DNA from: Paraspadella gotoi
Lineage: Eukaryota > Animalia > Chaetognatha
Direction of reading: 5' to 3'
DNA length: 64,000 nucleotides
Assembly (NCBI GenBank): GCA_051294375.1
Contig: CM119268.1
Span: 14,151,240 to 14,215,239 of the forward strand
Made by a program: the position numbers and the translations under genes. Shown one piece after another: positions 1-57,765 of this stretch. Positions within the stretch are counted from its first letter, which is position 1. Every line of letters starts with the position of its first letter. The notes under the pieces were generated by a model. The model made no database searches. It saw nothing but the letters and a program-made list of their open reading frames with translations, and had not been told where the DNA came from.

Positions 1-1790
1 GTCTCTTAGGGAAAATTTTGATCCGATAAGATTCCCCCCCCTCAATCCCCCCCCCCGACTTTTCCTCTCTCGGGTTTTACATCCACCCCCCCCCTTTCGA
101 CGTCCCCGCTTTTCCGCTCTCCTCGCGACACTTTTCTTGAACCGCGTTTTATGTTCCACGTAAAAAACAAAAAAGCTTCCGTGTTCCGCCGACTGATGTC
201 AGCGCCAGTCGTCTCCTCGAACCGAGAACGAAATAAAAACAAAAGGGGCGAGAAGAGCGGGGAGTGAGGAAAGACGTTTACGAGCGATAATCGCCAGCGC
301 CATCTATCTTCTTCTTTTTATGTTTTTTTTTTTCTCTTTCTCTTTCTCCTTTGGAGATGGTGTCTGTGTTTTTCCGCGAGGCGCGCCGCGTCCGGGGATG
401 TCGATGGGCCGCGTGGCGAGATGGTGAGGATGGGGCAATCTGAGTGAGAAGATGGTGAGCGGGTTGGACCGAAAGATGGCGTCTTTCAGGAAGGAGACTG
501 ATATTTTGTAAGTAAAACAGAGGAATATATATTATATATTACTATATGGGCTGTTGGTTTATGTTGTACTATTAATTTTTAATGGAAAATTTGAAACTAA
601 CTAAAGTTGTTCGTTACTTCAAGGATAAACGTACGCTTGAAAATGGTTTTTTTTCGGTCACAAATTTCTATGAAAAATATATAATGTTTTATTTTCGTTC
701 TTGTATATCGCGTATTATCGTGACGCGGTATACGGTAACGTCAGCACTCTCCTATTAACTTCTTGTTACAAACAAAAAATAACTTTATTTAAAAAGAGGA
801 ACCGTTTATTTTCCGACAGTCAATCAATGGCAATGCAGTTCATGAAGCATTAGTAAACAAACGTTAAATCAGCATTCAACAACGATGTTACGTTGAGGCA
901 CCAAAACTACGTTAAGAAACAGAAAAACAAATTTTGAAGTCAGCGCTCGCGACGAATGAATCGCAAAAGTGAACGGCAGTGACGCGACTGACGCCGGCAA
1001 TGACGGAATCGAAAGATGGCGCCAGGGAAGAAACCAATGCAAACGACATCATTTTCCCGGCGCCAACGAAGGACGCCGACGTCCGCCGGCGCCACCGACG
1101 ATGCCAAAGGCGAGGATTCTCCGCCGGCGTCACCGCCTGTCATCTCTTCGACTCAACTCTTCCTCCATGAGGCGGAACGAGGGCCTCTTGTGAGAATCTT
1201 TTCGTTCCAACATCGAAGAAGAAGAGCGTAGATGTCGCGCGCCTATCGACTCCGGACGTGGAAAGACGATAACCTGAAAGAGAATCCTGCCTCGGTTACG
1301 TATAATTCTTTCTTTGATGTGGGTCTTTATTTAAGCTTCACACGCTCACTCTATCTCACTCTCTGACGGGGCGATGTGAAAATGTATGTACTATACCCCG
1401 CTTTGTAATGCTAATCGAAACGTATTGTAATGCTAAATACGTCTTTCTTTCGTCAGTTAAATTTATTGCGTGAAAGAAAGTTGAGTTGAAAAAAAAAAAA
1501 ATTATAAAACCACAAAAGAATTTTTATATCGACGTTTCTCCACCCCACATATAAAAGCGAAGCAGAATTGGGGAATTTTCCATCAGCCCTGAACACCAAC
1601 TTCCTTATCACGTTCTGTCCTATCATCTCCCCCTATTTCTCAAACGCCTCCTCTTTTTAATCTCTTTCCCCCCCTCCCCTCCCCTCACCCCCGAAATAAG
1701 TAAACCAAAAGTGACTCGGAACAAAATAGATTCGCGTAGAATCAGAATATCCCGGCAATTATTATCAACAACATTCTTTCACCGTTTTCT

Positions 1791-3061: not shown

Positions 3062-5832
3062 NNNNNNNNNNNNNNNNNNNNNNNNNGAGAGAGAGAGAGA
3101 GCGAGAGAGAGAAGAGAGAGACAATGGTTTGGATGGGGGTGGAAGACTCAGAAGGATAAAACGGTGGGGGCCGGAAGAAAGCAAGGTGGAAATGATATCG
3201 CGTGTTGTTGTTGTCCGTTCGTTGACGTCGTCTTCGCCGGTGGTAGTCCGTCCGTCGACCGCTAATGCGTTGGAGAGAATCGAGCGGGTGACGCCTTCCT
3301 TAAATTCCCTTTAATGTAAATCGGTTGTTCGTCGTCGCTCGCGTTGTTATTTGTTTGGTGAAACGTCGTTGCGGCTAAGATGCAAGGGAAGTCAACCCTC
3401 GTTAACTTTATCGATGTGTTCGTGTCTGACGAGAGAGTAGTCAATTCAGCCTACGATGCGTTGTTGTCGGATTTCAGTTTTCCCCTTTTTTAAATGTATT
3501 TTGTATTTATGTACGATACATATTTAAAAAAATGGAGAAGGACAATTTTTTGTTTCCGACAACTATTCGGCTAATTTGCACTGAAAATTGAAACAAGGAG
3601 AAGAGAGAGAAGAGAGAGAGAGAAGATGAAGAGAGAGAGAGAGAGAGAGAGGGGAGAGAGAGAGAGAGAGAGGGATGAGATAGGTGTGGTGTGAGACAGA
3701 GAGTAAAGATAGTAAGGTCAAAAATTAAATAAATGTTAAAAATTTAATTTTTCTAATATATCTAGGAATATATAGAGCCACATTGTTGTTTGTTTTAAAT
3801 TTTTTAAGTATCCATATCACGTATATTGTAATTTGGAATTAAACCAATTTGATCATCATCTTCCTCATTCTCTCACTCGTGGCGGAATTCGACGCCTATC
3901 GTTTCGCCTTGGGAGGAACGTCTTTGGAACTCGTTTGCGTGATATCTCGACAAAAGGTTCGTTTTAACCGACGCCAGTAGTCCCGACACACGATCTTGAA
4001 GACGACGTCGAACGCTTCTTCGTCGTCATGGCGACAAGTGTGTTCTTTCGTCTGATCCGTGTTCCGTGGGGTTTCACGCAAAAAACTTTTGGCCATTTAT
4101 AAAACTAATATTTCTTATTATTTAGTTTTCACGAATATTTAAAAAATGAGTCGGAGTAGACAAGCAACGATTAAACAATCATAACGTGTAATGAAAAAAT
4201 TGGCCAGAGAGCTTTTTGTGCGAGGAATGAACTTTCTTAAAGTCATGAAAACCAAAAATGATCGAAATGGAGATTAAAATTTTTTTCAAACACAACTCAA
4301 ATTACTTCGATAAGAAGTAATTCGTCTTTGAGAGGAATTAGATAAATCAAGCAATCTTAATCGCCCTTACTTTTCTTTAATTCTTATATTTCGATCGATT
4401 GTCTTCTCGAGATTAAGTCGGACGTAGAATCTTCAATTGGATTCCGATTTTTGGCAGGATAGGATGAGGCGAGTAGTTCGACAACCAAATTTACGAAACG
4501 CCCGTTTAATAACTCGCTGCTCAACTAATAAAATCTTTGAGTGACAAGTATATACCGTTACAAGGTATAATATTTTTTTCACTTCAGAAAGTCGAACCTT
4601 TTTCTTCGAAGAAAATATTTTAAAGCTAACTTTTTCTTATTTTATACAGCGATCTAGACCTAAAGCTATCGAAAGTTCAGAATCCTGAGTCCAGCCTTTA
4701 AAAAACAATAGATAATCCATATTTAAATCCATCCGATTTCAGATATAATTATACTGTCAATATTCAACATTACAAATCCGACATGGCCTTTCTTCGTCGT
4801 GTCGCCTCCGGTTCTTTTGGAACGACGCCAAAAAGGTGGAAAACAACATAGGCCGTCCTTTTCAAACCGCCAAGGCGAATCGTTTCCCCTTCGTTGAATT
4901 TCTTCGTTCACGTGCTTCAAGAGAGACCCTATGCGACGTCCAGAAGCATTTTTCGAAACTAGAAATTGAGGATATAAATGGTTAGTTGGCAACAAAATAG
5001 CAATGATAGCCAAACATTATTAAAACGCTGTCGCTGACTATATAAACATTAAAATATCTGTTTCGATTTGGGAAAAAAATTAGTTAATGAAATATTGCCA
5101 TAAATTGAATCATGAATCTAAAAAAAATTACAGATAGATATTTTCTGTGGTGTCTTGAATGACGGAGAAAGGTGCAACCTGAATAATCCCAAACTACAAT
5201 GGCGATCGCATTTGAGCAGAATAAAGAGATTGGGGGAGAGAGCGTCGAGAAAAATCTGGACATAGCCAGAAGAATTGCGCTCTTCTGAAACGAAGTGCGC
5301 CACGACGTCAGGGAAAGTGGCTGAAGAATAATAAATTAAAAATGAAATGAATTGATAATAATGATAATAATTGATAATAATTCCAGTAAGAGGAAAATCG
5401 TTTGCATTGCCAAACATTCCAAAACCTCTAAAGCTTAACTCGCACAGCAAAGAGCGGAGAGAAGCATGAACGAGGGACGTGGATTTCTTTGAGTCGGTCC
5501 TCGAACCCGCCCACTCTTCTTCACGTTGGCCTCCGCATCCGCTGCTGCAGCGCCATCCTTGATTCGTCACCATCATCGCAGACGTACCTCACATCGTCAA
5601 ACAGCAGACGGCGTAAGGCCGCCGAGAATTGATGAACCTGAATGGATTTGACGTTCAAAATGACAAAACGTTGCCAATTTTCCATGATCTTCTCCGCAAT
5701 CACAAAATTCGTATTCGACTGGCTTCATTTTGCTTGAATTTATTATTGAGAATTATCGATTATTGTAGGTTTAATTCTGTGACTATGTGAAATACACCAT
5801 CACATCTACATTTTTTGAATTATTATACCACC

Positions 5833-6021
5833 TCATTGATAGGGAAGCCAGATTCTCTGGGGTGAATAAACGTGACTGTGCGAGAGTCTTGATTGAAAGC
5901 TTACAGGGACCTGCTATGTCATTTATCTTTTAAGAGTGATGGGGCCTTAAACCACCAAAGCCAGTCCGAAGTCAGGGGCAAGATCCCTTATTTATTATTG
6001 AATGGTTTGTACCAATTTCAT
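5833..6021 (-). mobile_element. Dispersed ~190-bp repeat, inverted copy of 27401-27592
   Basis: cattgatagggaagccag..gattgaaagcttacagggacctgctatgtcat..aaaccaccaaagcc..gtcaggggcaagat..gtaccaatttcat is the reverse complement of 27401-27592. Confidence 0.85.
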
Positions 6022-7323: not shown

Positions 7324-9563
7324 AACGGCGTACTCACAGGCGAGAATGACGAGTCTGACCGATTGAGCCGTCAGGCGCCGCCTCCTCGTCAGCGCGTGAA
7401 TGATGAGAGAGTTACAGGCGACGGAGAAGAGAGCGAGAACGAGCTCGGGGATCATGAGCAGGCGGAAGCGGTTGGTCGTATAGGCCCATGACGAAAACAG
7501 GGGGGGGATGGCAGGAGGAGGTGAGTTTAGGATCGAGAGATAGAAAAGGGATGGGGAAAAGTAAAGGAAGGTGGAATAGCTTAAAGAGAGAGAGAGAGGG
7601 TTAAGGATATAAAAAAAGAAAGAAAGAATAGGAAAAGGTTAGGAGAAATAAAAAAAAATTAAAGGAGTTTCCGAACGGAAATTTTTTTTTTTTATTTTGA
7701 AGCGAGGCGGATTTTCTTATGGCTTTTCGATGGCAACGCAATAATCTTTGCCAACTTAGTTTTAGCCGAGGGGAAATTCCGGGTGGATTTTTTTCTGGGG
7801 GGGGGGGAATGTCCCGTGTGAATGAGTCGAGAAAAAAAAAGATCGTCAACGGCCGGGTTTTCTTTTTCAATTAGTCATCGAAATAGTTTATTGTTTACCA
7901 AAAAAAAAAACTTATTAGTGAGGAGCAGAGCTTTACTAAAAGGAAAAGTCTTTGGTTACGATGTACTGTCAGCGTCACCTCCTCGGGTATTTTTCTCATT
8001 GATTCAAAAAAAGAAAAGAGAATCAGCGAAAAAGGAGCAAAACAGTTGATCGACTTATCGCTGAACTGGTTACAAACGCAGACCCTCATAATTTTAATTC
8101 CTCTCAGTGAATCGCGCTATTCGGACAGTATTCACGTTAGGATATTGATTATTGCGAAATAAACTAATTCAATCACTATTTACGAAAGATAAACATTTTA
8201 TTACTATCAAGAATGTTGTGGCTTTGAAAAATAAATTAAAAATAATATTTACAATCGTTAAAAAGACAATAGCGCCTTTAACTTTTATGAGCAATATTGT
8301 GAAAAAAATTTAATAAAAAAAGTCAAATATTGTAAAGAAAGTGGAACCTTTTAAAAGGAAGAAGAGAAAATACGTAATAACGCCCTGCGGAATTCAAGAC
8401 ATCTTCACGTTTCTTTCGGCCCGCGAAGAGTCTCTTAGGGAAAATTTTGATCCGATAAGATTCCCCCCCCTCAATCCCCCCCCCCGACTTTTCCTCTCTC
8501 GGGTTTTACATCCACCCCCCCCCTTTCGACGTCCCCGCTTTTCCGCTCTCCTCGCGACACTTTTCTTGAACCGCGTTTTATGTTCCACGTAAAAAACAAA
8601 AAAGCTTCCGTGTTCCGCCGACTGATGTCAGCGCCAGTCGTCTCCTCGAACCGAGAACGAAATAAAAACAAAAGGGGCGAGAAGAGCGGGGAGTGAGGAA
8701 AGACGTTTACGAGCGATAATCGCCAGCGCCATCATCTTCTTCTTTTTATGTTTTTTTTTTTCTCTTTCTCTTTCTCCTTTGGAGATGGTGTCTGTGTTTT
8801 TCCGCGAGGCGCGCCGCGTCCGGGGATGTCGATGGGCCGCGTGGCGAGATGGTGAGGATGGGGCAATCTGAGTGAGAAGATGGTGAGCGGGTTGGACCGA
8901 AAGATGGCGTCTTTCAGGAAGGAGACTGATATTTTGTAAGTAAAACAGAGGAATATATATTATATATTACTATATGGGCTGTTGGTTTATGTTGTACTAT
9001 TAATTTTTAATGGAAAATTTGAAACTAACTAAAGTTGTTCGTTACTTCAAGGATAAACGTACGCTTGAAAATGGTTTTTTTTTCGGTCACAAATTTCTAT
9101 GAAAAATATATAATGTTTTATTTTCGTTCGTGTATCGCGTAGTATCGTGACGCGGTATACGGTACGTCAGCACTCTCCTATTAACTTCTTGTTACAACAA
9201 AAAATAACTTTATTTAAAAAGAGGAACCGTTTATGTTTCCGACAGTCAATCAATGGCAATGCAGTTCATGAAGCATTAGTAAACAAACGTTAAATCAGCA
9301 TTCAACAACGATGTTACGTGAGGCACCAAAACTACGTTAAGAAACAGAAAAACAAATTTTGAAGTCAGCGCTCGCGACGAATGAATCGCAAAAGTGAACG
9401 GCAGTGACGCGACTGACGCCGGCAATGACGGAATCGAAGATGGCGCCAGGGAAGAAACCAATGCAAACGACATCATCGTCCCGGCGCCAACGAGGACGCC
9501 GACGTCCGCGGCGCCACCGACGATGCCAAAGGCGTCTTCCTCGACGAGGATTCTCCGCCGGCG

Positions 9564-13266
<3,703 letters not shown>

Positions 13267-14407: not shown

Positions 14408-17400
14408 TTAACGTAACTTCGTTTCTTGACAAAGTTTTGCGATCAGACAGACATTCTGGGCGAGTTGACCAGGAGATTGGGAAGGCGGACAGATATTCGA
14501 TCCGAGACCCAAAACGCGATGTTCTTTTGTTGGTCGAAAAAATAGAGTTAATAATGTAATAAATGATAAAAATAAAAAAGTAAAAAAATAAATCAATAAG
14601 TTTAGATGATATAAATTACAACAGTAACAACAAAATAAATAACTGCTACTTCAGCCTATTTGTAAAAGGAAGGAACTACAACAACAACCACAACGACGAC
14701 GACAACCTCCTCGTAGTAGGAACTTTCGTTGATGAAGATGGGATACGTGGATCTGGATCCTTTGAAGGGAATCACTTCTCCGTCGGCCCTGAGGAAAGCC
14801 GGCTGACCTGGGTCCAACTTGCAGAAATCTCGGTCCTGCATCCGGACAAATAATTATTTAAAAGCTTGTTAAAAATTAATAATAATTATTGGCGGAGACA
14901 GAAAGAGACATTTATCCACCACAAAACGTGAAATTTTCACGTTAGTTTTTTAATAAAAATCTTTCTCTTCTGGATTTTTTTATATAAATATTTTTATCTT
15001 TATTTTTATATTTTTATTTTGTAATCCAGTTAATCTTTATCTCGGACAAAAAACGTTAAAAACGTTTCACCTGCAATTCCGGATGAATCATGACGTCTTT
15101 ATCCCAAGCGTCAATCAACCGACTCTTCTTGATCGGATATGGGATCTTCATCGAGGGCAAGAAGACCTTGACGAGGTCCCCCGCCGACCGCTCCACGTCG
15201 TTGAGACTCTCCAAGAAATCTAGCGACATCTTGACGGCGAGTCTGAGACGCTCGACGACGTCTGCTCTGACGACGCCGTGGGGCTCGGAGCCGACGTCGA
15301 CCGAGAGACCGAAGTTGTTCGGCATGACGATGTGGTGCGGCTCTTCCGAAGACTCGAAGGCGACCACGCGAAGAGGAAGAGGAGGGGAACACTTTTGGAC
15401 GGAATCCTGAGAGGGAATTGGGGAAATTGTGGCAGCACTTGTTGAATGTTGAATGTCCTCAGCCTCGTCTCAATGGCTGAGCAGGCTAAATCATCTCGTT
15501 ACAACCGTGAGTCCCGGGTTCAAATCCCTTGGTATCCCGGTTCTGGCTTAAATGTGACGGAGCCAGTGACAGGAGGAGGTCACTGAGGGTCCACAGCCCC
15601 TACGCCAGTTGGTGAGATACCCCGCGCCCCGGGAATCACAGGCATTCCTCCCGTAGCCATAAAATGGGCTTTACCTTTTTCTGCTGATCAATCCGTCTCT
15701 TTATCTTTTGTCTGTCTGTTTGTTTTCTGTCTCATAGGCTCTATGCCTGTTTTTTGTCTCTCTGTCTATTAGTTTTTTATCCCTATCTGTCCGACTGTCC
15801 ATCAGACTGCCACTCTATCTCTGTCACTCTATGACTGTATCTCATATCTGTGTCTCAGTCACCCGCAAATGCTGCGCAACGTGAAAGGCGAGCCAGCATT
15901 TTCGATTTCTTCTCAACCAATTCTCCACGTCTTCCGAGTTTCGTCGAGTGTAGAACCTGAGAAAATGACTCAACTCTTTCGGAAATGTCACATCTGGGCC
16001 GGAGACAAACCGATAGTCACAGGGAGTCACGTAATGAAAGAACTTCTAAAAGTTTAAGTTTAAGAAATAATACAGATCAAGCTTTAAACTCAAGTTGACC
16101 CTGCCAACAGGCTTTACTAATTTTCATCTCCTCGATCAAATCAAATTAAATCAAATCTGTTTAAAGAATCGGCCAATGTCGAAGCTAATTGTCAAGCCCA
16201 CTCCTTTCCACCCCCCCGCCCCTCGACTCTGGCTCAACGACTGACATGATGACGACGACGATTCCAACGTTCGACGTCGTCGAGTGAAGATCGATGAGGA
16301 AGTCCGTGTTTCCGTTTCCGTACTTTTGGTGAATCTCCGACGCGCGCTGCCTCTCGTACGAATGCGGACCGGACTCTAGACGTTGGACAAAGACGCTCAC
16401 CGTTCATTGTGGTCTGTGGACGATTTTAAAAGGCTACGGGCTTACAGCAGATTCCGGCTCGATAATTCACTTTGTCGATAATCATATAAATAAAATATAT
16501 AAATAAATAATAATACAAATAATCAAATAATTCTTTAATCAATTAATCAATTAATTATTCAATCTAACCATCAATTAATTATTCCATCAATTAATCGATC
16601 AATTAATCGTTGTCGGTGTTTTCGTCGTCGTGGCCATTATCGTCGTCTTTTGCTTTTGTCGTGGTCAGTGATGGAAAAAAAAAAACCAAGTTTGAGCAAG
16701 CAATGTCGGATCTTATTAAAAAAATTAATTAATTAAATCGCTAATGAGCGTGGGCGGATCCGGAATTTTTTTGCACAAACATGTTTTTGGAGCTTCTGGA
16801 CACAAAGCCAAATCTACCCAAAAATGGCACGAAGAAAACGGGATCGAGGTGCTCAAAGGTTGGCCCAAAAAACTTGCCAAACAGCATCAAAAAAGTCTGG
16901 TCAACGACGAAGAGGGAGATTTTGCAGTACAACGCCAGTCGACGAAATAAAGAGAATCGTAAAACGCGTTTATATTTGCGCAGGCTCTACGACTCTCTCC
17001 CTTTTCCTATGGAATCAGTGCTGGAAGGAAGCAAATGGTGGGCCGACAAAGTATTAAGCACTGAGTTTCATAAATGTTTTGGTTTCCTTCAAAAAGTGAA
17101 ATAAAATGCTTTTATCATAACTATTAAACTTTTTTTGTACACATGGATACGATGATTCGTCGTTTCATGCAGAATTACGTCATAATCGGTAAATATCCTG
17201 ATATTTAAAATAATTAATCAATCAAATTATATTTGACTCGTAACAGACGCGAACACAGTTTGAAAGCTTCATCATAACTGACCTTCCCGCTTACTCACCC
17301 GACAATGGTTGAGGGTCTTTCTGAAAAGCTCGATTGAGGTCATCGTCGATGAGACGGCGACACGTTTGGACGGCCTTGGGATTACCGATCTCCACGAAGA

Positions 17401-17557
17401 CGTCGAGAGTTCGACGCTGCAGCTCCAACGCCCCTTCAGGCGTCGACCAGTAGCGTGTTAAAAAGACGCCGCTCAGTTCGTTGCCGTGGATGCCTCCCAT
17501 GATGAGGACGCGCTTAACGGGCTGAATGTCCACGCTCTCTTCAGAGTTCTCGGACAT
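14408..17557 (-). CDS. Aspartoacylase / aminoacylase-3 family (M14-like Zn hydrolase), 331 aa
   Basis: 6 phase-consistent GT-AG exons: 17299-17557, 16246-16375, 15863-15956, 15071-15406, 14707-14835, 14408-14455 (996 nt). Motifs GGIHGNELSG, GNPKAV..RRLIDDDLNRAF, DFLIDLHSTTSN, VDVGSEPHGVVRAD, IHPELQDRDF, YPIFINESSYYE match ASPA/ACY3. Confidence 0.95.
15456..15665 (+). mobile_element. tRNA-head + degenerate twister element (family copy 1), antisense in aspartoacylase intron 3
   Basis: A-box TGGCTGAGCAGG 15474-15485 and B-box GGTTCAAATCC 15517-15527. Then TGG-cttaaatg-TGA-cgga-GC, P3 cagtgac/gtcactg, P4 AGG-GT-CCA-CAGC-C-CCT (15586-15601). Confidence 0.75.
16744..17057 (+). mobile_element. Tc1/mariner transposase C-terminal remnant (frameshifted) in aspartoacylase intron 1
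   Basis: Across three frames: GASGHKAKSTQKWHEENGIEVLKGWP / NSIKKVWSTTKREI..LRRLYDSLP / EANGGPTKY*. This matches the Tc1 DDE-domain end (H.A....W......vl.WP..SPDLNPIE.lW..lK....lv.Smp.R...v..a.Gg.TkY). Confidence 0.8.
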
Positions 17558-18164
17558 CTCGGGGCGTTGGTGTGGAATGGATTGACCGTGACCGGAGCGG
17601 ATTCGCGACTGAAGACTGGAGTGGCTTGGCCAAGACTGGAGCGGAATTGTGACTGGAGTGGCAGATCAGATCTGTTCTGATAGGTTGGGTCAAATACGGT
17701 CGTCTTAAATCTTTATTAATCCTCTCTTTTTCTTCTGATTTTTGTTCGAAGACAGAGTAGAGAGATGAAATAAGGCGTTGAAGCTCAATTAAGAATTCAA
17801 TTTTAAAAAAAAAGTTAAATACCCAGTATAACCTTTGTTTATCATTGATCTGTATTTCTCATTTTCTGCAAATTAAACCTTTTATTCACTTGGTTTGCTC
17901 TAAATTCCCAGTTAATCTTGCATTGGAAACGAAACTAAAGAATTTTAAGAACCTACCTTTCAAAACCTAGAAAATCTTCGTCTTCAACTACAAGTTCGCT
18001 TTATATTACTAATTTTATCTATTGTTCTACGATTCACTTTGCCGGTCCGACGGTCCCACCCCAAAATCTTGTCGGTAAGTCACTTAGATGATGTCAGAAC
18101 ATCGAATTATGATAAATTATACCCAAAAAATCGATGTCCGTCCGTCTGTCTGTCCGTCCATCAT

Positions 18165-18375
18165 CAGGGGTCACTCTTTGAGTGGTGAGACCACTTGGAG
18201 GGATGTGTAGAGACTACCCAGTGTATACGACCGTAACTTTCATCAGCGGCGTAATAGTCCACTGGGCTAACAATTCATCTCTTGAACCGAATGGTCCCAG
18301 ATTCTAGCCCTGGTCGGAACTGTCCTTCCAAAAGAGTGACGGGATGGTTAAATCACCGACAGCAAGCGGGGCGTG
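18165..18375 (+). mobile_element. tRNA-head + 5' half of twister element (family copy 2), truncated by N gap
   Basis: Degenerate A-box (taatagtccactggg) and T-arm-like ggtcccagattctagccctgg. Then gagt-GA-CGG-gatggt-TAA-atc..ggggcgtg, in the same order and with the same ggggcgtg word as the 29.0-kb copy. Confidence 0.55.
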
Positions 18376-23028: not shown

Positions 23029-28157
<5,129 letters not shown>

Positions 28158-28749: not shown

Positions 28750-29330
28750 GGAGTCGTGGCGCGGGTTACTCGTTCCGCCACTCGAGGTCGCGGCCCTAAA
28801 GGGGATGACGTTACCGATTATGTCGCCATCGGCGCAATCGCGCTGGTTTCCAGCTTTGGGCCTTAGGGCGTCCTTGACTTGTAGTCGGGCATTGCCTAGG
28901 TTCACCCCGCCTCTAAGCATGACACCTTCAGTCCCGGTGGCTCATTGAGTAAAGCCATCAGCTCATGACCACTAGGTACCGGGTTCAATCCCAACCCGGT
29001 ACCTACCCTGTGGGAAGCGTGAGGACGGCCGTAAGTCGCCTTGGGGGCGTGGCAACCCCTCAAGCCTGGTTCCAAGCCCAGGACCCGTTCCATGGCTACT
29101 AAAGGGGGTTATAGAAGTTACGGATAGTCATCTTCAGCCCACTTAGCGCCTTATCCACAGACTAAGTGAACGGAATCCTTCACGTAGGGATGGCACTGTG
29201 TGGTGCTGGGCTACCAGTTTTACTAGATGAAGTAGGTGGTCAACTGTCAAAATCGCACAACCACCCTTCCTTGACTCCACCCTCTCGGCCCATATTGCCT
29301 CACCCTCCCACTCGCCAACACTCACCTTCC
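28750..29330 (+). mobile_element. tRNA-head/twister element plus an upstream partial tandem unit (best-preserved family locus)
   Basis: A-box-like TGGCTCATTGA 28938-48, B-box GGTTCAATCCC 28982-92, twister 29008-29095. Spacer words ctaaagggg..gttac.gat..gtc (28796 / 29099) and tccttgact..attgcct..caccttc (28871 / 29268) each occur twice. Confidence 0.75.
29008..29095 (+). ncRNA. Twister ribozyme, type P5 permutation with palindromic mini-P1
   Basis: P5 ctgtggga/ttccatgg; GA-GGA (29021-25); P1 CGGCCG; UAA (29032-34; predicted cut U^A); gtc; GC; P3 cttggggg/ccctcaag; P4 cctg/cagg around L4 GU-UCC-AAGC-C. T1 UCC:GGA. Confidence 0.8.
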
Positions 29331-30885: not shown

Positions 30886-32118
30886 AAGGGATCGGGACAC
30901 TGGAATATTCCTATAATACCTCCGGGAATAATGAACTTCAAAGCTCAAGGTAAGAAATGTCAGCTTCGGTTCGTCTTTCCAATTTTTAAACTTCTAAATG
31001 ATATGAATTCATGTAAAGAGTCTTGAAAGAACAATATAAAACCTACTATATCGAAAGAAAATGATCGTTATGATTGACAGGAACGACGTAAACCTCAGGT
31101 CGAAGTAGTAAAAGAGACTTGGGCCTCAAGATGTAGGTTCGAACCCGAAGGTTGCGGAGGAAAAAATATTAGGGTTTAACCATGTTAAAGGATTTGTCAT
31201 GCTCGTGCGTGTTAAAAAATATTTTTTGGGTTGTATAATTTATATAATTTATATAATTTATATCAAATAGGATGGAAGTTGAGAGATGAGTCCTCTTGTT
31301 TCTTGTTCGAGTCGTGCCCTTCGATCGACCTTGGAAGCCGCGATTCAGTTTTTACACGAAAAATTACTGAAAGCGAAAAAGAGGAAAGGAGAGGGAAGAG
31401 AAGAGAGGAGAGACGAGACGACGCAGGAGAGAGAGAGAGAGAGAGAGAGATTCTACATTTGAATCAAAATTAAGGATTTATTCGTAGCGATTTCGAGTTG
31501 TTATCTTTCATGTACAGAAACGCGGCACCACCTCCCTTGAAAGAGGAGGAAGAAGAAAAGTCAGGGAGTGAACAAACTGAGTGAATTTGAGTGAAGGAGA
31601 AAGAGAAGAGGGAAGAATGTGTTTTAAAGGTAGAGCGAGAGAAGGGGAGAGGGGCTATTGGAGAATAAGTGACATGAGGATTTTAATTTGAGATTCAGAA
31701 AAAACTTATGAAATTGGTACAACCAATATAAAAATTATCCATTCATTTAATAAACAAGCTATCTCTATATTAAATGATAATATGTAAGAGAAATCAAACA
31801 AGGAGTGAGAGAGCAAAAAAATTGAAATATATATCTAAAAAAGGGGGATACCAGAGAAAATAGGAAATAAACGGTTTCTTAACAAGTCGAAAGGAGAAAG
31901 TGGATATGAATGAGGACGGTAAGACGGGTAAGGCGGGTAAGGCGAGGCAGTGAAGGGGGTCGGAAAGCGGGGGTAAGGACACAGGAGACCGAGCGACTGG
32001 AAGGAATTCGCGTATATATTTGCGAAGGACAAGTTTTTATGTAGTAGACATTGAATAAGTTTTGCATATGGAATTTAAGACTTTCTTTTGTATAGAGGAC
32101 TGACGCCAGTGGATGAAG

Positions 32119-55510: not shown

Positions 55511-56176
55511 TCTTTTCCACGTTGGCGGCTAAAAAGCTTCCGAAATGAATTCCATTTGCGCGATATTAGATCTTCAAATTGAGAAAAATTGGTTTTGAGA
55601 CAAAATCCATGAAAATTTTATGCCGAGATCTTTCTCTCTCTCTCTCTCGGGGGGAAAAGAGGGAGGTAGGGAAGGGGAGTGCCGGGTGGGAGAGGGAAAA
55701 AGGCGGAAGATGGTGGTTCACATGGTGGTGGTGTTTCGAAGTGTGGTTAGACGCTGTTTCAACACACCGCAGCCAGTGGCAGGGGCAAAAGAGCTTAATT
55801 ATTAAATAAATGGATAATTTTAATATTGGTTCCCGCTATTTTATAGTGGTTTGTTCTGGTGGCTCCGGTTTTACAACGTCTGTTGACCACTGACCCCTGA
55901 CCACTGACCACTGACCACAATGACCAGTGCCGAAGTCAAAAAAGCCAGAAACAAGGGAAAGAGGGACTGGGTCTCCTTAGAATTGGTTACCGTTACTGTC
56001 TATTTTCTGTAATCTTAGGAGACCCTTTTTGATGGTAGTACGTATGAACCGAAGAAATCTCCTTCGATCTGGAGAGTTGATTTGAGATGAAAATTGTTTA
56101 AGGCGGAAGCATGATTTAATTTTTTATGGGTGATTATTACGTCAAGGACCCTTTTAGTGTTAAAACACCAGCTCTC

Positions 56177-56553: not shown

Positions 56554-57068
56554 TCCTTAAATTTAGCGTGAGCAATCCTCTGGTCTGGCTCGCTACGCAC
56601 GTTCTTTTCGACTCTTGAATCTCTTCATTTCCCTCAAGCGCTCAAATCACACACACAGAATCAGTCCCTTTCTTCCGTCTCTCTCTCTCGTTCTCGCCTC
56701 TTTTCTTCTCTGCGGTGCTTCTCTCCATGGCTCTCCTCATCTCTCTCTCTTGGTCAGACTCTTTAATTTAGAGTGGAGCAACGTCGCGCTCTCTCAGTCA
56801 CTTTCTTTCCCTCTTTGAACTTCATTTCCCTCAGAGCGGCATCCAGAAATCCTCACAACACAGACATCAAGTGCGCTTCTCTCTCTCTGCTCTCTCTCTC
56901 TTTCTCTCTCTCTCTCCTCCTTGCTCTCTCTCTGGTCCTTTAATTTAGAGTGAGCAACTCTTTCTCTCTCGCACTTTCTTTCCCTCTTTGAATCTCTTCA
57001 TTCCCTCAAGCGCTCAAAATCTCAACAGACAGAATCAGTCCTTTCTCCTCTCTCTGCTCTCTCCTCTT

Positions 57069-57101
<33 letters not shown>

Positions 57102-57309
57102 TGGTCCTTTAATTTAGAGTGAGCAACTCTTTCTCTCTCGCACTTTGAATCAGAATCAGTCCTTTTCCTCTCTCTCTCCTCTCTCTCTCCTCTTGTCCTT
57201 TTTAATTTAGAGTGAAGCAACTCTTTCTCCCTCGTCCACTTTCCTTTCCCTCTTTGAATCTCTTCATTTCCCTCAAGCGCGTCAAAATCTCACACACAGA
57301 ATCCAGTCC

Positions 57310-57344
<35 letters not shown>

Positions 57345-57765
57345 TCCTTTAATTTAGAGTGAGCAACTCTTTCTCTCTCGCACTTTTTTTCCCTCTTTGA
57401 ATCTCTTCATTTCCCTCAGCGCTCAAAAATCTCACACACAGAAATCAGTCTCTCCTCTTCTCTCTCTCTCTCCTCTATGGTCCTTTAATTTAGAGTGAGC
57501 AACTCTTTCTCTCTCGCACTTTCTTCTCCTCTTTGAATCTCTTCATTTCCCTCAAGCGCTCAAAATCTCACACACGAGAATCAGTTCTTTCTCTCTCTTC
57601 TTCTCTCCTCTCTCTTTCCTCTCTCTCTCTTCTCTCTCTTGGTCCTTTAATTTAGAGTGAGCAACCTCTTTTCTCTCTCTCGCACTTTCTTTCCCTCTTT
57701 GAATCTCCTTCATTTCCCCAAGCGCCTCAAATCTTCCTCACACACACGAATCAGTCCTTTCTCTT
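56520..57765. repeat. Satellite of ~130-140-bp units with an embedded variable (CT)n tract, ~8 copies
   Basis: tggtcctttaatttagagtgagcaactctttctctctcgcactttctttccctctttgaatctcttcatttccctcaagcgctcaaaatctcacacacagaatcagtc-(ct)n, repeated. Confidence 0.92.

What the first reader, a model, noticed from the sequence alone, without database searches (positions are those of the whole stretch)
29008..29095. Twister P1 reduced to a palindrome, suggesting cleavage as a dimer
Seen: the segment between the T1 partner and UAA is only 6-8 nt and self-complementary: CGGCCG (29026-31), tCCTAGGg (26662-69), TAaTACTA (26992-99, one change from TAGTACTA), and degenerate at 15547-54 and 18343-48. The sequences differ but the palindromy recurs. 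P2 also looks atypical (2 bp + bulge + C-G) here and at 18.3 kb. Known: minimal Penelope/newt hammerheads use a palindromic stem III to cleave as dimers, and twisters tolerate a truncated P1. Inference: these twisters may form P1 in trans between tandem units, so multimers cleave while monomers or circles are protected.
Basis: partly seen in the sequence, partly recalled or inferred. Interest (0 to 1): 0.8.

Follow-up and report, generated by a model that had tools for sequence, protein, structure and literature searches.

The report
Twister ribozymes with palindromic mini-stem
Several short, many-copy repeats in this animal genome carry a twister-type self-cutting RNA fold whose first stem has shrunk to 5-8 letters, self-complementary in some families but not all, so two RNAs may have to pair up to cut while a lone RNA would stay whole; no cutting has been tested.

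Summary
Read data show three many-copy repeat families; two start with a tRNA-like head. In all seven copies P1 is only 5-8 nt, against 20-26 nt in five phage P5 twisters. The copies look dispersed, not tandem, and are no more frequent past the predicted cut site, so uncut RNA seems to be the template. Folding models predict a self-blocked 29.0 kb monomer and a favourable strand-swapped dimer. Published work says P1 is dispensable, so dimer cleavage leads only narrowly (0.36) over slow monomer cleavage (0.32) and a dead relic (0.24). I found no dimer-cleaving twister in print. The scan earlier noted variant twisters in other animal repeats, but not this feature.

The parts
28933..29159 (+). 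SINE-like element: tRNA-like head, P5-order twister, tail; many-copy family
   Evidence: 6354, 6124, 2378 and 484 contigs laid from 4 runs; many pieces begin at 28933; 118, 110, 85 and 21 contigs leave at 29159, one base before the end of the stretch laid, into low-agreement AT-rich letters
28938..28991 (+). A-box-like (28938-49) and B-box-like (28982-91) Pol III promoter motifs
   Evidence: loose motif scan with many chance hits; ARAGORN calls no tRNA; box consensus recalled
29010..29088 (+). twister core in P5 order: P5 29010-14/29084-88; P2 29017,19,20/29035-37 with bulge 29018; GA 29021-22; T1 29023-25/29071-73; T2 29038-39/29076-77; P3 29040-64; P4 29065-82
   Evidence: sequence; descriptor score 18.25; partial Rfam Twister-P5 match 15.5 bits, E 6.4, below gathering; majority letters at 29011 and 29036 improve P5 and P2
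29026..29031 (+). P1 segment CGGCCG, perfect palindrome; predicted cut between U29032 and A29033
   Evidence: self-duplex -10.7 kcal/mol, matched by 7 of 4096 hexamers; other letters at most about 4% of depth; cut site by analogy
26657..26713 (+). second family: twister-like core with T1 CCG/CGG, segment TCCTAGGG (26662-69), no assignable P2, behind a tRNA-like head
   Evidence: descriptor score 17.0; self-duplex -11.0; no other letter at 35% or more, summed depth 1.14 million at 26660-89
26987..27045 (+). old, broken relative of the 26.6 kb family; segment TAATACTA (26992-99), then AAA; T1 mispaired
   Evidence: z=13 similarity to 26.6 kb; depth near single-copy level; self-duplex +2.0
27400..27617 (-). 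third many-copy family, no tRNA-like head seen; twister core 27505-27463 with T1 UGG/CCA, T2 AC/GU, segment AGACCT (27496-91)
   Evidence: Rfam Twister-P5 23.6 bits, E 0.053, gathering 37.6; descriptor score 19.25; no other letter at 35% or more in the segment, summed depth 3.4 million; self-duplex +1.0
5808..6021 (+). older copy of the 27.5 kb family; segment GGCCT (5943-47)
   Evidence: 81.5% identity over 200 nt; full alignment; self-duplex -8.3
15466..15666 (+). broken relative of the 26.6/27.0 kb lineage; segment CTTAAATG (15547-54), then TGA; about 17 nt missing before T1
   Evidence: z=7.6 and 15.7; alignment
18250..18375 (+). broken copy with bulged P2 and segment GATGGT (18343-48); L4 half of T1 missing; N gap follows
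   Evidence: sequence; alignment; self-duplex +0.8

Best explanation
These are P5-order twister folds with P1 cut to 5-8 nt inside many-copy repeats, two of which carry tRNA-like heads, and they likely cut poorly as single RNAs but would cut when two RNAs swap strands and pair their self-complementary P1 segments. Shown: the fold, covarying pseudoknots, the short segment, palindromes in two of three many-copy families, and copies that keep both sides of the predicted cut site. Predicted by folding without pseudoknots: at 29.0 kb the first half of the palindrome pairs with the P2/T2 strand and hides UAA in a loop. In a swapped dimer the 5' half of each RNA (P5 arm, P2 strand, GA, T1 strand) pairs with the 3' half of the other across a 6-bp P1. 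Inferred: a lone Pol III transcript keeps its promoter head and is copied whole. Inferred with no test here: the motif came from the end of an autonomous element (Penelope-like is a lead), where two copies share one transcript.
For: T1 differs among intact families and stays paired (GGA/UCC, CCG/CGG, UGG/CCA), T2 is GC/GC or AC/GU, and GA and UAA are kept. The segment is 5-8 nt in 7 of 7 copies; the five phage P5 twisters seen have 20-26 nt (L002, L003, L004, L007, L010). CGGCCG is matched by 7 of 4096 hexamers and UCCUAGGG by about 94 of 8000 random octamers; 3 of 41 chance segments reach -8 kcal/mol. Both are family majorities. In the related 8-nt lineage the inner pair 3-6, impossible in a hairpin, is U-A at 15.5 kb and C-G at 26.6 kb (A.C at 27.0 kb). 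The swapped dimer is 16.3 kcal/mol below two native-like monomers (7 of 4096 hexamers as good; median 4.9); the blocking hairpin has pair probability 0.95-0.98. Depth does not rise past the cut site (X1 1.24 to 1.01 million; X4 1.75 to 1.64 million). Precedent: hammerheads with a 1-bp stem and palindromic tetraloop cleave better as dimers (PMC7229834; PMC6765202).
Against: P1 is reported dispensable: near wild-type rate without P1 (PMC5408937), and no link between P1 length or stability and cleavage in a large test aligned to the P1-type model (PMC11662667). The 27.5 kb family, with the highest summed depth, has AGACCU as majority; swap gain only 3.7 kcal/mol. 4 of 7 segments form no stable self-duplex. 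Before pseudoknot energy the native-like dimer is still 7.9 kcal/mol above two blocked monomers, and the monomer misfold gap is not unusual (249 of 4096 hexamers as large). The 26.6 kb family has no assignable P2 and may be dead. No tandem arrays were seen; no RT or endonuclease family among 145 of 192 open frames scanned. The statistics are post hoc and rest on about two lineages.
Confidence: 0.36

Rival explanations
1. P1 is vestigial: a 1-2 bp hairpin with a 4-nt loop, or unpaired. The RNA cuts in cis as a monomer, slowly or only in part because of misfolding, so enough whole RNA survives to be copied. Palindromes are a by-product of closing pairs, ancestry and chance.
For: P1 dispensable; T-variants with poor P1 reported active (PMC8501958). 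First and last letters pair in 6 of 6 even-length segments, as a hairpin needs. AGACCU is the majority in a family with an intact core. CGGCCG is partly explained by its cis partner, since GCCG follows UAA in the majority form.
Against: Inner pairs exceed chance (7 of 12 against 13 of 52). Two different palindromic loops occur (GGCC, CUAG). Forced mini-hairpins cost +2.7 to +5.8 kcal/mol. No excess of copies starting at the cut site was seen.
Confidence: 0.32
2. The twisters are switched-off relics: each short element took the fold from an autonomous partner and keeps it as a shape that the partner's reverse transcriptase recognises; no cutting occurs in these elements in any form.
For: Cutting would remove the Pol III head (inference). 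Depth is flat across the cut site. The 26.6 kb family spread without an assignable P2. The 29.0 kb monomer is predicted to fold shut. SINEs with disabled ribozymes were noted in other genomes (unchecked notes).
Against: GA, UAA, T1 and T2 are intact and covary in three families; majority letters improve P2 and P5 rather than break them.
Confidence: 0.24
3. One reading: source copies lie in tandem arrays; multimeric transcripts cut through neighbouring units and give monomers or circles, as in retrozymes, and the dispersed copies come from these.
For: Precedent in animal retrozymes. Two 'goes back' joints in the 27.5 kb family and a tail fragment 312 nt upstream at 92.5% identity. Part of the 29.0 kb family shares at least 30 nt upstream of the head. 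Contigs can hide arrays.
Against: Those joints have depth 267-290, about single-copy level (2 of 15 rows shown, 26 not shown). None among 15 rows shown for 29.0 kb (107 not shown), and 3' ends run into unrelated letters. No tandem repeat covers any copy.
Confidence: 0.08

Closest known systems
Twister ribozyme, type P5 (Rfam RF02684, clan CL00120)
   Same: Strand order, GA-T1, UAA, T2, P4/L4; best Rfam family at 27.5 kb.
   Different: P1 segment 5-8 nt instead of a long hairpin; P2 of 3 bp with a bulge, or unassignable; scores 23.6 and 15.5 bits, below the gathering score 37.6.
Minimal type I hammerheads of Penelope-like elements and amphibian retrozymes (PMC7229834 and PMC6765202, passages; primary paper PMC5785218 not held)
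   Same: 1-2 bp stem with a palindromic tetraloop next to the cut site, in retroelements; this is the working model for the dimer.
   Different: Different ribozyme class; twister P1 is reported dispensable; hammerhead units sit in tandem, these copies look dispersed; no dimer test here.
T-variant twisters of Perere-3 in Schistosoma mansoni (PMC8501958, passages)
   Same: Twister with weak or absent P1 in an animal retroelement.
   Different: Those have open ends in P1 and lie at the element's 5' end, with the target duplication forming P1. Here the order is P5, the site is internal, behind a head, and P1 is a closed loop.
tRNA-headed SINEs, and Schistosoma promoter-plus-hammerhead SINE-like elements (figure legend in PMC6765202)
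   Same: A/B-box-like head followed by a ribozyme, about 230 nt, many copies.
   Different: Twister instead of hammerhead; no poly(A) or repeat tail seen; target duplications and partner element not established; the 27.5 kb family shows no tRNA-like head.

Membership tests
Twister type P5 | Two pseudoknots T1 and T2 | tested here: met
   paired with different letters at 29.0, 26.6 and 27.5 kb; broken in the 15.5, 18.3 and 27.0 kb copies
Twister type P5 | Conserved GA before T1 and U-A cut site | tested here: met
   present in 4 of 7 copies with an otherwise whole core (29.0, 26.6, 27.5, 5.9 kb)
Twister type P5 | Stems P2 and P4, ends in P5 | tested here: inconclusive
   met with a bulged 3-bp P2 at 29.0 kb; P2 not assignable at 26.6 kb; P5 not assigned at 27.5 kb
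Twister type P5 | Stem P1 as a hairpin of several pairs | tested here: not met
   at most 1-2 pairs in cis; described here as a variant, not filed as a plain member
Twister type P5 | Rfam gathering score 37.6 | tested here: not met
   23.6 and 15.5 bits; no twister hit in the whole-window scan
Twister type P5 | Self-cleavage at U-A | not testable with these tools
   only contigs were available
Dimer-cleaving minimal ribozymes (works-like) | Palindromic loop on a 1-2 bp stem | tested here: inconclusive
   2 of 3 many-copy families, 3 of 7 copies
Dimer-cleaving minimal ribozymes (works-like) | Tandem arrangement of units | tested here: not met
   no well-supported head-to-tail joint among the rows shown; contigs can hide arrays
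Dimer-cleaving minimal ribozymes (works-like) | Dimer cleaves faster than monomer | not testable with these tools
   folding models only
tRNA-derived SINE | A and B boxes in the head, many dispersed copies | tested here: met
   29.0 and 26.6 kb families; the box scan is loose
tRNA-derived SINE | Target site duplication and LINE-derived or repeat tail | tested here: inconclusive
   no clear duplication or repeat tail by eye; part of the family shares sequence upstream of the head
Non-autonomous Penelope-like element / retrozyme | 3' end shared with an autonomous PLE; partial tandem or inverted insertions | not testable with these tools
   no genome held; no RT or GIY-YIG family in 145 frames; one tail fragment upstream of the 27.5 kb copy

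The most novel reading that the evidence does not exclude
A natural twister that cuts only as a strand-swapped dimer. Penelope-like elements use it where two ends share a transcript, and tRNA-headed parasites that captured one copy escape cutting as monomers, so the palindrome acts as a concentration switch that limits their spread.
Probability: 0.25. Interest if true: 0.78.

Novelty: new variant of a known kind. Interest (0 to 1): 0.55.

Why it matters
If dimer cleavage holds, a second ribozyme class has reached the same palindromic-loop solution as minimal hammerheads. It would also explain how a short element can carry an intact cutter downstream of its own promoter. Even if it fails, this is a many-copy twister variant below the Rfam threshold, inside SINE-like elements, and a natural test of whether P1 is dispensable when it is a tight closed loop rather than two free ends.

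Tried and rejected
Whole genome: none held. Expression: no RNA holder listed; X7 is only guessed to be RNA and was used as one more holder. Outside relatives: the metagenome pattern gave 41 matches, none with T1, T2, P2 and P4 together, so they served as a chance control. Three viral scans (8, 9 and 50 loci, two shared) gave ordinary P1-type and long-P1 P5-type twisters and chance matches, and no convincing P3 or P5 twister with a 5-9 nt P1; these exact patterns cover only GGG/GGA-type T1. More copies in the window: profile searches found only the seven used to build them, plus one hit at E 0.45. A tail shared between the 29.0 and 27.0 kb elements, and a tandem repeat of the tail upstream of the 29.0 kb head, were borderline (z 2.3 and 2.5-2.6) and are not claimed. 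The 94-nt stretch between the 27.5 kb element and its upstream tail fragment is not shared with the 5.9 kb copy, so a 312-nt unit was rejected. Rfam microRNA hits are microsatellites. Summed contig depth is not a copy number; it is used only as 'many copies'. Family majorities for the 15.5, 18.3 and 5.9 kb copies were not obtained.

Full report
Setting. The window is animal-like DNA with microsatellites, gaps, and exons of a kinase with an SH3 domain and of an aspartoacylase-like gene. No whole genome is held.

Is the twister real? A whole-window Rfam scan lists no twister. A local scan gives Twister-P5 at 27504-27462 (23.6 bits, E 0.053) and a partial match at 29043-29081 (15.5 bits, E 6.4), both under the gathering score. 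A descriptor scan ranks 27501 (minus), 29021 and 26657 at 19.25, 18.25 and 17.0, above the best shuffled score of 16.5 in 6 shuffles. T1 is GGA/UCC, CCG/CGG or UGG/CCA, and T2 is GC/GC or AC/GU. BLAST adds a copy at 5808-6021. The 15.5, 18.3 and 27.0 kb copies are relatives with broken cores. The 15.5, 26.6 and 27.0 kb copies form one lineage (z 7.6-15.7). The other four share a bulged 3-bp P2 but little other similarity across families.

Families. Public contigs laid at 80% likeness show many-copy families: 6354 contigs from X1 on 261 bases at 29.0 kb and 10042 from X4 on 891 bases at 26.6-27.5 kb. Summed depth is about a million or more against about 60-260 for the single X1 and X4 contigs listed. 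The tool warns that this is no copy number; thousands of copies is my rough reading. In the 29.0 kb family, majority letters at 29036 (about 99%) and 29011 (83-94%) turn wobbles into G-C pairs in P2 and P5, the bulged 29018 varies, and the segment CGGCCG shows at most about 4% other letters (40 rows shown, 2 not). The family is young, so this last point is weak evidence of constraint. At 26.6 and 27.5 kb no segment letter reaches the 35% listing threshold, so TCCTAGGG and AGACCT are majorities; minority forms are not visible. The 27.0 kb copy lies near single-copy depth.

Palindromy. Self-duplex energies are -10.7 (CGGCCG), -11.0 (UCCUAGGG), -8.3 (GGCCU), +1.0 (AGACCU), +2.0, 0.0 and +0.8 kcal/mol. 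Inner pairs are 7 of 12 against 13 of 52 in chance matches; P is 0.011-0.049 depending on the count, and 0.005 for 5 of 6 inner pairs in the three many-copy families. These tests are post hoc and the lineages are few. The signal is above chance but not universal, and the clearest exception is a family with an intact core. Its older relative has GGCC, one deletion from a perfect palindrome, which hints at a palindromic ancestor but is a single copy. Five phage P5 twisters picked up by the patterns have 20-26 nt segments, so the short form is unusual in that sample.

Tandem or dispersed? At 29.0 kb many contigs start at 28933 and leave at 29159 into unrelated AT-rich letters (the stretch laid ended at 29160, which limits this reading). 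No 'goes back' joint is among 15 rows shown (107 not shown). Depth does not rise past the predicted cut, and no loose-end row at 29033 is among 24 shown (985 not shown). At 27.5 kb two such joints sit at single-copy depth. The adjacent 26.6 and 27.0 kb segments do not pair with each other.

Folding. Without pseudoknots, the 29.0 kb majority form folds CGGC onto the P2/T2 strand and GAGG onto CCUU, which hides UAA (pair probability 0.86-0.98) and lies 12.1 kcal/mol below the native-like fold. A strand-swapped dimer gains 16.3 kcal/mol over two native-like monomers but remains 7.9 above two blocked monomers (window letters). Pseudoknot and tertiary energy, not modelled, would decide. The pattern fits 'monomer off, dimer on', but the misfold gap is matched by 249 of 4096 hexamers. 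For 27.5 kb the swap gain is 3.7.

Literature. PMC5408937 (passages): twister without P1 cleaves at almost wild-type rate; one crystal form held dimer artefacts with a disordered site. PMC11662667 (passages and section 32 part 1): P1 and P2 imperfections are tolerated; sequences were aligned to the P1-type model. PMC8501958 (passages): P1-poor T-variants lie at the 5' end of Perere-3; 'dimer' occurs 0 times. PMC7229834 and PMC6765202 (passages): palindromic-loop hammerheads cleave as dimers. PMC8557442 (passages): Naiads lack canonical hammerheads; 'twister' occurs 0 times. bioRxiv 10.64898/2026.07.22.740005 (passages): animal retrozymes derive from PLEs; no mention of twister or tRNA. bioRxiv 10.64898/2026.09.16.752053 (passages): nothing on twister dimers. 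Eight searches (listings only for papers not named above) showed no dimer-cleaving twister and no twister in a tRNA-headed SINE. The library lacks most subscription papers, including PMC5785218 and PMC4715771. I read no supplements; the sequence lists of PMC11662667 could hold such variants. Whether the P1-deletion result carries over to a tight closed loop is my open question, not a published result.

Verdict. The best reading is a self-blocked monomer with dimer-assisted cleavage (0.36), close to slow monomer cleavage (0.32) and a dead relic (0.24); the tandem or circle version gets 0.08. It works like a minimal Penelope hammerhead only by analogy. It is a variant of twister type P5, not a plain member. 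Interest 0.55.

Noticed in passing
window 28750-28932 (+): GC-rich stretch upstream of the tRNA-like head; its last 30 nt or more recur upstream of the head in part of the family. It has hairpins and a borderline likeness to the element's tail (z about 2.5). Unexplained.
   Followed up: partly
window 27712-27778, 31700-31764, 55780-55831: Lone 3' tail fragments of the 27.5 kb family; depth rises toward the 3' end, as with 5' truncation; the end carries a small hairpin and no poly(A).
   Followed up: partly
window 26713/26714: The 26.6 kb copy has lost the family's P5 arm and most of the tail; other copies continue into sequence like 27050-27105.
   Followed up: partly
L096:103-200: Viral contig with two near-identical P1-type twisters head to tail, 60 nt apart, sharing the junction.
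   Followed up: no
L011:151-230: Viral contig where a twister-like motif is flanked by two GAGGA strands, also suggesting adjacent units.
   Followed up: no
window 10819-12998 (-) and 14659-17665 (-): Exons of a kinase with an SH3 domain and of an aspartoacylase-like gene; the 15.5 kb element lies between aspartoacylase-like exons.
   Followed up: no
window 915-1190 and 9340-9620: Two near-identical stretches seen in the motif scan output, possibly a local duplication.
   Followed up: no
window 56731-57764: Tandem repeat of 136-169 nt units built around CT microsatellites.
   Followed up: no
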